64,000 nt of DNA, from contig CM119269.1 of the NCBI GenBank assembly GCA_051294375.1, forward strand, positions 1,380,537 to 1,444,536, given 5' to 3'. The translations under genes and the position numbers were made by a program. Under the pieces are notes generated by a model. The model did no database searches. It saw only the letters and a list, made by a program, of their open reading frames with translations, and was not told the DNA's origin. The stretch comes from Paraspadella gotoi (taxonomy: Eukaryota > Animalia > Chaetognatha). This document shows positions 12,101 through 60,700 of this stretch, one piece after another (position 1 is the first letter of the stretch; the number at the start of each line of letters is the position of its first letter).

Positions 12101-14900
12101 TGAGTCGACAGAATCTCGATGATCTTCGATCCCAAGGTCTGCGTCGGCGGCGGCGTCGGTTCCGGCGTCGGCCCCGGCGGCGGTCGGGTCGTCGTCGTCG
12201 TCGTCGGCGCCGTCGTGAGTGACTTCGTAGATGTCGTCGTAGTCTGCGGAAAATGGGAAGGTTTTAATACATTATATATATATCTCTCTCTCTCTTCTCC
12301 TCTCCTCCTCTCACCCGCGATGACATCAACATGGCGTTGATGAATTCCATCTGATCAATCTCTCCACTCTTGTCTCTCTCTCTCTCTTTTTCTCTCTCTC
12401 TTCAAATCAAATCAATCTCTCTCACCCACGATGAACATCAATATGGCGTTGATGAATTCTATCTGATCGATCTCTCCACTCTTGTCTCTCTCTCTCTCTT
12501 TTTCTCTCTCTCTCTCTCTCTCACCCGCGATGAACATCAACATGGCGTTGATGAATTCCATCTGATCAATCTCTCCACTCTTGTCTCTCTCTCTCTCTTT
12601 TTCTCTCTCTCTCTCTCTCACCCGCCGATGAACATCAACATGGCGTTGATGATTCCATCTGATCAATCTCTCCGCTTTTGTCTCCGTCGGATCGACGAAA
12701 GATTTCGAGGGCGAACTTTTTGGAGAATCCCATCTCCTTCATGGCGGCCACGAATTCTCGCGGTCGAGGGCGCTGAAGAGAATCGATGAAGTGGGTCTTG
12801 GTTTAATATCGAGATCACTTTACATTCAAATTCAAGACTAATTGTAACAAAGCAAGAATTGGTCATTGTCGAATTGGTCATTTACAGGTTTAATTCGAAA
12901 TTAGAGATCCGTTATAGGGTGTATTATTTTAAGATGTTCTACTTATATATATATCCTTAACCTGGGATTTTCTCCCAGCTTGTGACAAGACCAACTTAGG
13001 AGAAAATAGTGTCACATTTCCTTTGTAATCATCAAGTAAAACAAGTAACCGCCGTTAATTGGATCACTAAAGTCAAATACTATCCGCAAACACTAGTCAT
13101 CATATAATTCTATAGGATCCATGACCAACAGGTCAATTTTTTTATAATAATATACCGCCTCACGTCCACCATTGTTCGGACCAATACCATTGGCTCAGAG
13201 GGGGAACACACCAATCCCAGGCGTTTGTTTCCATCCACAGTCCTAACGACCTTCCCTCTGCGTTGGCAAAGCGAGACCATCTTCGGTAACCGCGGCCAGT
13301 GACTGGAGGCGTCACTGGAGGGTCAAAGCTCCAAAGCCAACAGTGAAGAAGCCCCGTCCCATGGGCATCACAAGCCACAACCCGGCGCCTTACCCAGAAT
13401 CATCGGTGGTCAGCGACGCGAAACTTTTGAATTGGACAGAAGCAAAAGGCCGACTTTGCGGAATTCGTCTCGAGTCGAGACGTTGTCGCCGGCGGCGTCG
13501 TAGAAGCGGAGGAATGGACTCCGCCTGGAGGTGGTCTGAAAGAAGTTAGAAAGAGGGTTTGTTTCGCCAGTCTGTTTCCAGTTGTTGCGACAGTCGATAG
13601 TCAGTCTTTAACGATATCAAACAAGCTCGGACCCACCCGTCTCGTAAAGTTCTTGAAGAGTTCCTGCAGTTCGATCTGCATCGTCCTCGTCGGTGTCGAG
13701 CGCGTTCGAATCGTCGTCGAGGTCTTCGATGATTCCGGCGTTCCGATCGTCACGATCTGCGACGAGGAGTTTGGGATGTTCAGACGGGATGGTTGAAGAA
13801 AAGTGGCGGAGATTTGAATGATATTAGTTGGGTTAAGGATGAAGAGGAAATGATAACGAGGACTAATTATGAAATAACAGTCCGTCGGTACGGAAGAAAA
13901 TTATAATTTTTTATAATTGTCTAATTGTCGTATTTATAATACGTATTATTGATTAGGCGGAATTAAAAAAATCGGGAATCGGTCATTGGAAAAACTTACC
14001 GGAGGCGGCATGTCTGAATCTGCAAGCGATGAGACCAGGATAATAATAAAAAAAGCTTTACTAATTTGTTTTTGTCGTTGTTGTTGTTGTTTTGAAATTT
14101 AGGGCACATTTTTGCAATAGGGAACGCCGAATGTTTTGTAAACCGAAGGCTGAACTTTGTCGTCTTGTCCGAACAAGAAAATGACCCTGGGCCCACGATA
14201 TCAGCCGTCGCCTCACCCAGTTGAAATGGAAATCCGGTTTCGAGGCGGGAGTGGAGGTAAGTTATTTCCGGAAATTTCTTTTTAAGTCAAAAGTAATGGG
14301 TTTTTTTTTTTAGATCGCGTCAAGCTGAAGGTATAACTCGATCTATGTCGACGCTTCTGTCTTACAGGCTTCAGCATTGGAGAGAGAGAGAGAGAGAGAG
14401 ACAGAGAGAGAGAGAGAGAGGAGAGAGAGAGTAAGAGAGAGAGAAGAGAGAGAGAGAAAGAGAGGAGAGAGGGAACTTTCCCAAGTCTTAAGCGCTCTTT
14501 CTCGGTCCTTTCTGGACACAGCGAGACCTTTCCTCTTCCCTCCTGTTCACACCGAAGAGATCTGGAATCAAGGGTTCGAAACTGAGAATTAAATCGTAAA
14601 TAAAATATTCATCGTTTGATCATTAATGTACAGTAAACAACCTTTGAACATTGCCATTCTAATGAGTGAGCATTTCATCGATAAATAAAAAATGTTTAAA
14701 ACATCTAAACCATAAATAAATCTTTTTCCTCTTCCTTCTCGTCGCTCCTCCGCTCCTTGCTTCCTTTGGCTGCATTTTTCTCCTCATCCTGGAATCGTCA
14801 TACGAATGGCAATGACTTTAACTGTTTCAGCGCCGCCACTTACCCATCCCTAGATCCCTTCGCTTTGTATTTTGTTTCTGGCCTTTCCTTGGCTCACGAA
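9199..14900 (-). CDS. Multi-exon EF-hand protein (two 4-EF-hand modules, Thr/Pro linker, non-EF C-terminal region); 5' end uncertain
   Basis: Loops [96 protein letters not shown]; exons near 13640-13757, 13392-13535, 12623-12774, 12019-12243, 11480-11620, 11234-11350, 10990-11096, 10753-10856, 10217-10332, 9623-9779, 9199-9255. Exons above 12690 were read using the cleaner copy at 18773-21400. Confidence 0.75.
12313..12676 (-). repeat. 4 tandem copies of an exon 3' end + GT donor + GA tract
   Basis: Each unit encodes [18 protein letters not shown](A) followed by GTGAG and a (GA)n tract on the minus strand. Confidence 0.9.
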
Positions 14901-57700: not shown

Positions 57701-60700
57701 CCTGTGATATTTTCCGTCATCCACCCTACTAAGCTCATATAGTGTAGTCGTTCTGGCTCGATAGCGAGGCCTGTGATATTTTCTGTCATCCACCCTACTA
57801 AGCTCATATAGTGTAGTCGTTCTGGCTCGATAGCGAGAGCACCATAGTAGATAATATTCCGTATCCATCCTACTAAGCTCATATAGTGCCCCCCCCACCG
57901 GACAGGACACCAAGATCGTGACACCGGATTCCGATTACGACGGCATCTACATCATCACCTCAGGCACGGTCAAGATCCTCACCGTCAGAGGGCCCTTCAA
58001 GAAGGCGGAGCTCGTGACCACGACCGCCTTGGGGCAGAACGTCAGTCAACGGACGAGAGGTGACGACGACATCGACGCCCTCCTCTGGCCGGAAGCGAGA
58101 GCGGCCGCTAAGGTCGCCGGGGACTGGGGCCGAGAGAGCGGCGAGGGATGGACGAAGGGATTGGGCTTGGAGCAGGTGTGGTTGGGGGTTGGGGACGGTG
58201 GGGTGGTTGTGGGAGAGAAGTGGAGATTGAAGTGGATGTTGTCGAAAAAGTATTCGAGAGGTTGAGACAAAATTGAAAACATTTAATTATAACGGAAAGA
58301 GCCGATAGTCCTTCGCCAGCCGACTAGGCCTTCGCCAGTCGAAGCCTTCGCCAGCGATAGTCCTTCGCCAGCCGATAGTCCTTCGCCAGCCGATAGTCCT
58401 TCGCCAGCCGATAGTCCTTCGCCATTCCGATTTGGGCCTTCGCAGGATGTGCTTCGCCAGCCGATAGTGCCTGTCGCCAGCCGATAGTCCTTCGCCAGCC
58501 TAGGTTCGGACAGCCATTGGACTTGCAGCGATAAGTCCCTTCGCCAGACGATAGTCCTTCGCCAGCGGCTGATAGTCCTTCACCAGCGATAGTCCTTCCA
58601 CATGCATAGTCTTCGCCAGCGATAGTCTTCGCCAGCCGAAGTCCTTCGCCAAGCCGATAGTCCTTCGCCAGCCGATTTAGTCCTTCCCAGCCGATGTCTT
58701 CGCAACGACTTAGTAGGCCATCGCCAGCCGATAGTCCTTCGCCAGCCGATAGCCTTCGCCAGCCGTGATAGTCCTTCGCCAGCCGATAGTCCTGTCGCCA
58801 GCCGTATCAGGTCCTTCGCCAGCCGATAGTCCTTCGCGCGATAGTCCTTCGCCAGCGATAGTCCTTCGCCAGCCGATAGTCCTTCCCAGCCGTATCTTCG
58901 CCAGCCGATAGTCCTTCGCAGCGATAGTTGCGCCTATGCCTTCTGCCAGCCGATAGCTACATAGTCCTGCGCCAGCCGTAGTCCTTCGCCAGCCGATTCC
59001 TTCGCCAGCCGATAGTCCTTCGCCAGCCCGATAGCCATCGCCGCATAGTCTTCGCAGCGATAGTCTTCGCCAGCCGATAGCTTCGCCAGGCCGATAGCCT
59101 TCACGCCAGCCGATGTCCTTCCCAGCGCTCAGGGCACTCGCCAGCGATAGTCCTTCGCCAGCCATAGCCTCGCAGCGATAGTCCTTCGCCAGCCGATAGT
59201 CTCGCCAGCCGTAGTCCTTGCCAGCCGATAGGGCCTTCGCCAGCGATAGTCTTCGCAGCGATAGTCCTTCGCCAGCCGATAGTCTTCGCCACCGATAGTC
59301 CTTCGCCAGCCGATAGTCCTTCGCGCGATAGTCCTTCGCCAGCCGATAGTCCTCTTCGCCAGCCGATAGTCCTTCGCAGCCGATAGGCTTCGCCAGCATC
59401 AGTCTCTCGCAGCCTATAGTCCTTCGCCAGCCGATAGGCCATCGCCAGCCGATAGTCCTTCGCCAGCCGATAGTCCTTCGCCCAGCCGATAGTCCTTCGC
59501 CAGACCGATAGTCCTTCGCCAGCCATAGGCCTTCGCCAGCCGATAGTCCTTCGCCAGCGATAGTCCTTCGCAGCCGATATCCTTCGCCAGCCGATTAGGC
59601 CATCGCCAGCCGATAGTCCCCGTCAACGGGCACGCTTTCCTCTTCGTTTTTCCTCCCCCTCGTCCCGGAGATCCAGGGCCGAGTCCAGAGTTTTACGTTT
59701 TCCATTCACGCTCTTTCTCTCTTTCCCTCTTACAAGACCTCTCCGTTTAGTTAGACTTTGGCCTTTTTTTCTCTCACCGATTTAGTCGCTTACCAATGAT
59801 TATTTTCTCATTTTTCTCCACCTTACTTCGTCTTACTTGCCGTCAGTTCGAGTCGGACCTACTCGACCTTAGAGGAAAATATATAGATTAAAACTTGGTC
59901 TCTCCTCTCTCGCCTTCCTCAACCTCTCCGCTTCCCCACCTTTCTCACCTTCCTCAACCTCTCTCCACCTTCCTCAACTCTCTCCGCCTTTCCCAACCTC
60001 TCTCGACTTCCTCGATCTTAGGAAGCGACGACGGACAACGTCAACGCCCTCACTCCGCAATCGAGATAGTCAAGGGACGACGGCGACATCCGCCATAAAG
60101 AGAAAAATCATCGGCAAAGAAGATTTTCGCGCCGCCGGCTCGTCATCAACTTTGATTGCGCGCTCCAACGCTTTGCTAAGGTTTGGGTCTGAGTGAGAGA
60201 GAGAGAGAGAGAGAGAGAGAGAGAGAGAAAGATTTCGCGCCGCCGGTTCGTCATCAACTTTGATTGCGCCGTCCAACGCTTTGCTAAGGTTTGGGTCTGA
60301 GTGAGAGAGAGAGAGAGAGAAGAGAGAGAGATTTTCGCGCCGCCGGCTTCGTCATCAACTTTGATTGCGCCGTCCAACGCTTTGCTAAGGTTTGGGTCTG
60401 AGTGAGAGAGAGAGAGAGAGAGAGAGAGAAGATTTTCGCGCCGCCGGCTTCGTCATCAACTTTGATTGCGCCGTCCAACGCTTTGCTAAGGTTGTGGTCT
60501 GAGTGAAGAGAGAGAGAGAGAGAGAGAGAGAAGAATTTTTGGCGCCGCCGCTTCATCTCAACTTTTGATTGCGCGTCCCGCTTTGCTAAGGTTTGGGTCT
60601 GAGTGAGAGGAGAGAGAGAGAGAGAGAGATATTATTGTCCAAAGGTCTCGCGATCTAGCATCCAACTCTCAATCAACACGCCCCCCCCCCATCCTTTCAA

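What the first reader, a model, noticed from the sequence alone, without database searches (positions are those of the whole stretch)
12313..60604. Recurring genome pattern: tandem arrays whose units are exon-intron junctions
Seen: at least four unrelated arrays in two genes (12313-12676, 19680-20170, 48508-50190, 60119-60604; possibly 58300-59619) each amplify a piece of exon together with its splice site, leaving rows of decoy donors or acceptors. Inference: either a mutational process that grows introns from their edges and could seed new introns or exons, or a splicing system able to pick one site among up to ~23 near-identical ones.
Basis: partly seen in the sequence, partly recalled or inferred. 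Interest (0 to 1): 0.75.

Follow-up and report, generated by a model that had tools for sequence, protein, structure and literature searches.

The report
Splice-junction "mirage" minisatellites, two genes
Four short repeats in two genes of an unidentified animal have copied an exon edge with its splice signal 4 to 23 times into the neighbouring intron; this kind of repeat is already described in lancelets and several human genes, and here it is likely a harmless copying slip that splicing skips.

Summary
Four of the five arrays hold an exon edge plus its splice site: A (4 copies, donor), B (7, donor), C (23, acceptor), D (5, donor). The fifth (58300-59619) is purely intronic; the RNA contig splices across it. 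One RNA run uses the first donor of D and B; for A this is inferred, and for C the last acceptor is inferred from 67 of 67 homologues. B also occurs as a single unit, probably another allele. Enrichment is borderline: 4 of 8 arrays span a junction against 1.2-1.9 expected (P 0.015-0.09), in a window chosen after the fact; no genome is held. Two of three donor arrays sit on (GA)n tracts that match GA-like letters in the exon, which likely seeded the copying. This is the lancelet "mirage" and human F7/CBS/LMNB2 type (PMC3087553, PMC1557585). No new intron or exon and no special splicing system is shown. This scan found the same kind before in other animal genomes.

The parts
12285..12684 (-). 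Array A: 4 copies of exon end (60 nt) + GTGAGA donor + GA tract; exon-bearing copy ends at 12622, decoy donors after 12525, 12426, 12315
   Evidence: DNA depth; third copy carries its own substitutions and an insertion
12622..12772 (-). EF-hand exon whose 3' end is copied in array A
   Evidence: Pfam EF-hand, weak, E 0.017; RNA contig aligned 12626-12759 and joined to the exon ending 13393
13610..13682 (-). Single-unit version of array B (likely another allele): exon end + GTGGGT donor, no repeats
   Evidence: RNA joint 13536-13652 reads this donor; run X7 carries these letters with no extra depth, contig ends at 13670
19678..20171 (-). Array B: 7 copies of 71 nt (43 exon + 28 intron); exon-bearing copy ends at 20129; 5 of 6 decoy donors altered
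   Evidence: EF-hand_6 E 0.0034; runs X1 and X5 carry the last unit's letters
9600..14311 (-). Gene 1, multi-EF-hand protein (hand-set exon model; may extend below 9600)
   Evidence: 2406-nt RNA contig with three joints
42766..61765 (+). Gene 2, Na+/H+ exchanger with ion-transport and weak cyclic-nucleotide domains (SLC9C/sNHE-like; name recalled; 5' part 42766-44840 joined by eye)
   Evidence: Pfam PF00999 E 1.9e-8, PF00520 E 2.3e-4, PF00027 E 0.16; 156 homologues; RNA contig
48508..50197 (+). Array C: 23 copies of the exon start with 56-nt period; working acceptor likely the last (exon from 50155); 20 of 22 decoys keep AG
48568..48972 (.). 405-nt insertion between first and second unit of C, 5-nt target duplication, tRNA-like piece between 20-nt direct repeats
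   Evidence: Rfam tRNA 20.7 bits, E 0.13, below the gathering score
60120..60630 (+). Array D: 5 copies of exon end (about 60 nt) + GT donor + GA tract; donor used follows 60180; decoys after 60288, 60389, 60490, 60590
   Evidence: RNA joins 60180 to 60711, unit contigs at 3-5 times single-copy depth in 3 of 3 DNA runs
58300..59619 (+). Array E: 18-mer, about 75 copies, wholly intronic; not part of the pattern
   Evidence: RNA joins 58175 to 60022; high unit depth in 3 of 3 DNA runs; no likeness to flanking exons
57340..57888 (+). Intronic 70-mer array ending 17 nt before an acceptor; holds no exon sequence
59904..60013 (+). Intronic 19-mer pyrimidine array ending 8 nt before an acceptor
47044..47154 (+). 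Intronic C-rich 25/26-mer array ending 4 nt before an acceptor

Best explanation
Arrays A-D are minisatellites whose unit spans an exon-intron junction (lancelet 'mirage', human F7 type), likely born by a copying slip between short look-alike stretches on either side of the junction and likely tolerated because splicing uses the site next to the intact exon. Shown: the unit anatomy; the arrays in independent DNA (A, B, D); first-donor use at D and B in one RNA run. Inferred, step 1: a seed duplication by slippage or template switch; at A and D a (GA)n tract just after the donor pairs with GA-like letters 60 nt back in the exon, at C the intron end pairs with a look-alike pyrimidine-rich stretch 56 nt downstream in the exon. 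Step 2: unequal crossover or slippage expands and homogenises the units. Step 3: a duplication across a junction always leaves one complete exon with its own site and puts the extra copies on the intron side, so it escapes the selection that removes frame-breaking exonic repeats. Step 4: exon definition or first-donor scanning picks the exon-adjacent site, and nonsense-mediated decay would remove the rare transcripts made from decoys.
For: Unit anatomy. RNA joins 60180 to 60711 and reads the B donor with a single copy of the exon end. The gene 1 RNA contig runs 1685 letters past 12626 unbroken, which a repeated 60-nt exon end would be expected to break (inference). Last-acceptor model of C scores higher in 67 of 67 homologues spanning the junction; the penultimate-acceptor model needs a gap of 10 or more residues in 66 of 67. 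21 of 22 C decoys give a stop inside the exon; the first A decoy step and 4 of 4 D steps contain stops. GA tracts follow 4 of 55 donors; 2 of these 4 carry arrays against 1 of the other 51 (Fisher P 0.012). Entry points of A and D units share GAG / AGAA-like letters with the exon. C unit matches the exon in register at 16 of 26 intron-side positions, best offset equal to the period, and also matches the sequence left of the first unit better than 45 of 45 other intron ends. B exists with 1 and with 7 units. Same arrangement, length instability and normal splicing reported in lancelet (PMC3087553, PMC3902484, passages seen) and human genes (PMC1557585).
Against: One RNA run, contigs only, which drop rare forms: minor decoy use cannot be excluded. 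As assembled, the last C exon copy has one T more than the units, which puts the last acceptor out of frame and the penultimate one in frame; I read this as a sequencing slip, untested. B's entry point shows no clear microhomology. Enrichment at junctions is borderline (P 0.015-0.17) and the GA test rests on three arrays. C's flank match alone is weak (shuffle P 0.07). Depth of contigs is not a copy number.
Confidence: 0.72

Rival explanations
1. No bias to intron edges: minisatellites arise anywhere, and in a genome of short introns a 56-101 nt unit often crosses a junction by chance once wholly exonic ones are purged. Same outcome as the best reading but without any edge hot spot or GA seeding.
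For: With wholly exonic placements excluded, 1.7-1.9 of 8 arrays are expected to span a junction; 4 observed, P 0.05-0.09, and P 0.08-0.17 with six two-copy repeats added. Median intron 243 nt. Three of five modelled genes (40 junctions) have no such array. The window was picked for the pattern.
Against: 7 of 8 arrays span or end within 20 nt of a junction, expected 3.0, P 0.005 (post hoc threshold); GA-tract association P 0.012.
Confidence: 0.3
2. Array C rebuilt the splice site from coding sequence: the unit began as a copy of exon positions -2 to +54, so today's acceptor is exon-derived; possibly one unit is now part of the exon (penultimate acceptor in frame through the extra T, adding 19 residues).
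For: In-register match of the intron half to exon +31..+56: 16 of 26, 6 of 10 differences transitions, shuffle P 1e-4; 21 control intron ends reach at most 14 of 26 against the same stretch. Window letters give an open frame from 50099.
Against: The intron half also resembles the sequence left of the first unit, the likely old intron end, as expected if likeness was the cause rather than the result. One of 21 other introns reaches 16 of 26 at its best offset. The insertion would fall in a stretch where the homologues lack it. Three other units of the array differ from the 56-nt length by one base.
Confidence: 0.12
3. The decoys are functional: regulated alternative sites that tune expression through unproductive splicing, or a dedicated system that chooses among copies.
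For: Most decoys keep AG or GT; human CBS and 6-16 use two pseudo-sites as well (PMC1557585, introduction passage).
Against: RNA contigs show only the exon-adjacent donor at D and B; 5 of 6 B decoys have altered donors; B appears absent from one allele; an insertion sits on a C decoy junction; the four units are unrelated.
Confidence: 0.06
4. The arrays are assembly artefacts of noisy long reads near GA tracts and gaps.
For: The window is gap-filled and indel-rich, with 12691-18562 repeated at 18773-24957; no laid contig spans a whole array.
Against: Unit contigs at raised depth in independent DNA runs for A, D, E and last-unit letters for B; copy-specific substitutions, an insertion in A copy 3 and a 405-nt insertion with target duplication in C.
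Confidence: 0.03

Closest known systems
Lancelet 'mirage' minisatellites (Adh3, globins BflGb6/BflGb9, troponin C, PGBD5); PMC3087553 and PMC3902484, passages found by term search
   Same: Tandem repeats spanning either exon-intron boundary, units 10-160 bp, many but not all keeping AG/GT, copy number differing between haplotypes (6 vs 3), normal splicing, several loci per genome, proposed as a route to new introns.
   Different: Another animal (not identified); two donor arrays include a GA microsatellite in the unit, which the passages seen do not mention; C has 23 copies on the acceptor side.
Human F7 intron 7 37-bp VNTR, with CBS intron 13, LMNB2, PDGF and 6-16 minisatellites; PMC1557585 (abstract, discussion and one introduction passage seen)
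   Same: First unit spans the exon-intron junction; 5 to 25 pseudo-donors follow; the most upstream donor is used (only it in F7, LMNB2, PDGF).
   Different: Those are donor-side cases in long-intron genes; here one array is acceptor-side and introns are short (median 243 nt) with loose donor consensus.
Intron gain by tandem genomic duplication (Rogers model; review PMC3443670, passages seen) and ITR-driven intron modification (PMC2812944, first part and passages seen)
   Same: Tandem duplication of exon sequence multiplies splice sites and can change gene structure.
   Different: There the duplicated exon segment supplies both donor and acceptor of a new intron; here each unit holds one kind of site and only lengthens an intron whose other end is unique sequence.

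Membership tests
Mirage minisatellite (lancelet type) | Head-to-tail repeats whose unit spans a real exon-intron boundary | tested here: met
   A, B, C, D; junction read in RNA for D and B, by frame and homology for A and C. Not met for E, which is therefore excluded.
Mirage minisatellite (lancelet type) | Many but not all copies keep AG or GT | tested here: met
   C 20 of 22 decoys AG; A 3 of 3 and D 4 of 4 GT; B 5 of 6 GT, 1 of 6 unchanged
Mirage minisatellite (lancelet type) | Regular splicing is not disturbed | tested here: inconclusive
Mirage minisatellite (lancelet type) | Length instability between alleles | tested here: inconclusive
   B has 1 and 7 units in the assembly; X1 and X5 array-type, X7 single-type but its contig does not bridge the unit; D depth ratios 3.2-5.3 are only a hint
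F7-type donor VNTR | First unit holds the authentic donor and it is the one used | tested here: met
   D and B; A inferred
F7-type donor VNTR | Pseudo-donors are functional when the first is removed | not testable with these tools
   needs minigene mutants as in PMC1557585
Intron gain by tandem genomic duplication | Donor and acceptor of a new intron both come from the duplicated exon segment | tested here: not met
   In A-D the partner site lies outside the array in unique sequence
Intron gain by tandem genomic duplication | The intron is absent from orthologous genes | not tested
   no gene structures of relatives were available

The most novel reading that the evidence does not exclude
In this animal intron edges are a genome-wide duplication hot spot: GTGAG-type donors sprout (GA)n tracts that seed copying of exon ends, introns grow from their edges, and at array C the working acceptor has been partly rebuilt from coding sequence, while a short-intron spliceosome with very loose donors still passes 20 intact acceptors to reach the last one.
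Probability: 0.25. Interest if true: 0.5.

Novelty: new member of a known kind. Interest (0 to 1): 0.25.

Why it matters
As it stands it adds four examples to a described class. Two things could be used. The mechanism that starts such arrays is called unclear in PMC3087553 (passage seen), and arrays A and D offer a testable one, GA-tract microhomology. Array C is a natural acceptor-side test of exon definition against first-AG scanning in a short-intron animal. B, with one-unit and seven-unit forms, would give a before-and-after pair if the alleles are confirmed. Practically, such arrays mislead spliced aligners and gene predictors.

Tried and rejected
Genome-wide test: no genome is held. Array E as an acceptor array before a small exon at 59610-59689: rejected, the RNA contig skips it and 59651-59693 is a high-copy repeat (depth 2916 against 66 in X1). 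Full-length homologue search with exon 48168-48425 found none of 127 candidates; the HMMER search did (71 of 150 proteins were 500 aa or longer, 67 spanned the junction). An ungapped junction-copy scan found only 1 of 110 because one-base slips in the assembly break A and C; the gapped scan found 3 of 110 plus B in its array version and no further hidden copy. The 25/26-, 70-, 18- and 19-mer arrays show no likeness to flanking exons (shuffle P 0.14-0.62). B's intron half does not match the upstream exon (P 0.20). In-frame decoys at A: one 99-nt step is open but is reached only through a 97-nt step with a stop (tract lengths uncertain). A real 5-kb duplication at 13480-18560: X1 depth there (70-73) is no higher than on single-copy sequence (80), so uncollapsed haplotypes are more likely (hint only). 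ARAGORN found no tRNA gene. The run search listed no holder on record as RNA; X9 proved spliced when laid. X5 and X7 have uncovered parts at 13727-13844, which says nothing. Paper searches for a genome-wide enrichment study listed none by title or abstract start; these two searches do not show that none exists. No notes on such arrays came up among this genome's other 55 noted windows in the rows shown, which is weak.
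Full report
Setting. The window is animal DNA from a gap-filled, indel-rich assembly: four N runs, and 12691-18562 appears again at 18773-24957 at 91-95% identity, mostly gaps. No genome is held, so every chance test is confined to the window. I set exon models by hand for five genes, 55 introns and 110 junctions; five joints are read in RNA. Gene 1 (minus strand) encodes EF-hands; gene 2 (plus strand) has Na+/H+ exchanger, ion-transport and weak cyclic-nucleotide matches, the SLC9C/sNHE layout (name recalled). Median intron length is 243 nt. 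Donors are loose: 37 different hexamers among 55, three GC.

The arrays. A (12285-12684) has four copies of the last 60 nt of an exon, each followed by GTGAGA and a GA tract; copy 3 has its own substitutions and an insertion. B (19678-20171) has seven 71-nt copies; five of six decoy donors are altered, and copies 4-6 differ by 0-1 nt, a recent expansion of one variant. The other version of the same region has a single unit (13610-13682). C (48508-50197) has 23 copies of an exon start, AG before 21 of them, and a 405-nt insertion with a 5-nt target duplication after the first copy. D (60120-60630) has five copies of about 60 nt exon, a GT donor and a GA tract.

Are they real, and are the junctions real? 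Eleven runs were listed; I laid five of them on two stretches. X9 is spliced RNA. Its 2662-nt contig matches 60020-60180 and continues on one side into the exon ending 58175 and on the other into the exon starting 60711. So D's first donor is used, and the 18-mer array E with the short open frame behind it lies wholly in an intron. Its 2406-nt gene 1 contig shows three joints, one of them at B's donor with a single copy of the exon end (laid on the single-unit version). At A the alignment stops at 12626, at a one-base slip of the assembly; the loose end was not among the rows shown, but the contig runs on unbroken for 1685 letters, which argues for the first donor (inference). In DNA, unit-sized contigs of D lie at 209/66, 216/40 and 184/39 of single-copy depth, and the A edge at 268/80, 50/20 and 139/15; the tool warns that depth is no copy number. 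X1 and X5 carry the letters of B's last array unit; X7 carries the single-unit letters without extra depth, but its contig ends at 13670 and does not bridge.

Which acceptor at C? Of 22 decoys, 21 give a stop within the exon. As assembled, the last exon copy has one T more than the units, so the last acceptor is out of frame and the penultimate one in frame, adding 19 residues. Among 150 homologues fetched, 71 are 500 aa or longer and 67 span the junction; all 67 score higher with the last acceptor, and 66 need a gap of 10 or more residues for the longer form. This shows that relatives lack the insertion, not that this species does. Three other units differ from 56 nt by one base, so a sequencing slip is the likelier reading; it is untested.

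Chance. With arrays collapsed to one unit and placed at random in the five genes, 1.2-1.4 of the eight genic arrays of 100 nt or more would span a junction (observed 4, P 0.015-0.027); excluding wholly exonic placements, 1.7-1.9 (P 0.05-0.09); adding six two-copy repeats, P 0.02-0.17. Seven of eight span or end within 20 nt of a junction against 3.0 expected (P 0.005), but I chose that threshold after looking and two of the three extra arrays are pyrimidine-rich. A gapped scan found no further junction copies: 4 of 110 in all. The excess is suggestive, not established, and the window was selected for it.

Mechanism. Four of 55 donors are followed by six or more GA units within 30 nt; two of these four carry arrays, against one of the other 51 (Fisher P 0.012). 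At A and D the copied exon piece begins where the exon itself has GA-like letters, so a slip from the GA tract back to the exon would copy exon end, donor and tract together (inference). At C the intron half of the unit matches exon positions +31 to +56 in register (16 of 26, shuffle P 1e-4, best offset equal to the period), and also the sequence left of the first unit (higher than 45 of 45 other intron ends, shuffle P 0.07). The simplest reading is that the old intron end resembled the exon 56 nt downstream and this seeded the slip; an acceptor built from exon sequence is the rival. B shows no clear seed. By geometry a duplication across a junction leaves one complete exon with its own site and puts the extras in the intron, so it can drift. 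Choice of the exon-adjacent site by exon definition or first-donor scanning, with decay of stop-bearing by-products, follows from general splicing knowledge and from PMC1557585; it is not shown here.

What is known. PMC1557585 (abstract, discussion, one introduction passage, reference lines seen) describes the F7 37-bp VNTR whose first unit spans the junction, shows that only the most upstream donor is used, and lists CBS, LMNB2, PDGF and 6-16 with up to 25 pseudo-sites. PMC3087553 (six passages seen) names such repeats 'mirages' in lancelet, on both boundaries, with haplotype length differences, normal splicing, an unclear mechanism of origin and a model for intron gain; PMC3902484 (one passage) adds PGBD5 and troponin C. 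PMC2812944 (first of six parts and passages) and PMC3443670 (passages) cover repeat-driven intron change and the tandem-duplication route to new introns, whose defining feature is not met here. The original lancelet Adh3 paper was not seen, and no supplements were read. The term 'mirage' and PMC3087553 came from earlier notes of this scan, which list the same kind in annelid, shark, urchin, comb jelly and brachiopod DNA; those notes are unchecked.

Verdict. Four real junction-spanning minisatellites and one intronic array wrongly grouped with them: new members of a known kind, with borderline enrichment and a plausible, testable GA-seeding step. Interest 0.25.

Noticed in passing
window 12691-18562 vs 18773-24957; 6258-7203 vs 7232-8182: Blocks repeated across N gaps with many one-base indels; depth in X1 is not doubled, so likely uncollapsed haplotypes or gap-fill overlap rather than real duplications.
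   Followed up: partly
window 48568-48972: Insertion with a 5-nt target duplication, a tRNA-like piece ending in CCA between two 20-nt direct repeats; on the minus strand it reads like an LTR end plus primer-binding site (that reading is recalled, not tested). It sits on a decoy acceptor of array C.
   Followed up: partly
window 37020-42429: Element with 238-nt terminal direct repeats 99% alike and a GC-rich interior; reads by eye as a young LTR retrotransposon; no domain search run.
   Followed up: no
donors across five genes: Very loose 5' splice sites (37 hexamers in 55 hand-set donors) and 3 GC donors (36044, 45282, 50272), one of them closing the exon behind array C; not checked in RNA.
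   Followed up: partly
window 11150-11231, 12584-12619, 47659-47831, 60195-60228, 60956-60998: Microsatellites start 2-14 nt after donors (GA tracts), and a GTTT tract begins at the donor after 60955, giving a row of GT sites.
   Followed up: partly
window 12665: Runs X9 and X7 read G here, the letter that decoy copy 3 of array A carries; a synonymous variant shared between an exon allele and a decoy, possibly from exchange between copies.
   Followed up: no
window 13137-13372: Very high-copy dispersed repeat in an intron of gene 1 (summed depth above 100,000 in X1); similar letters by eye near 45390 and 46590.
   Followed up: no
window 54701-55249; 51831-51979 with 52170-52320: Intronic inverted repeats (78% over 553 nt; 97% over 151 nt), possibly miniature transposons.
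   Followed up: no
window 59651-59795: Short high-copy dispersed repeat directly behind array E.
   Followed up: partly
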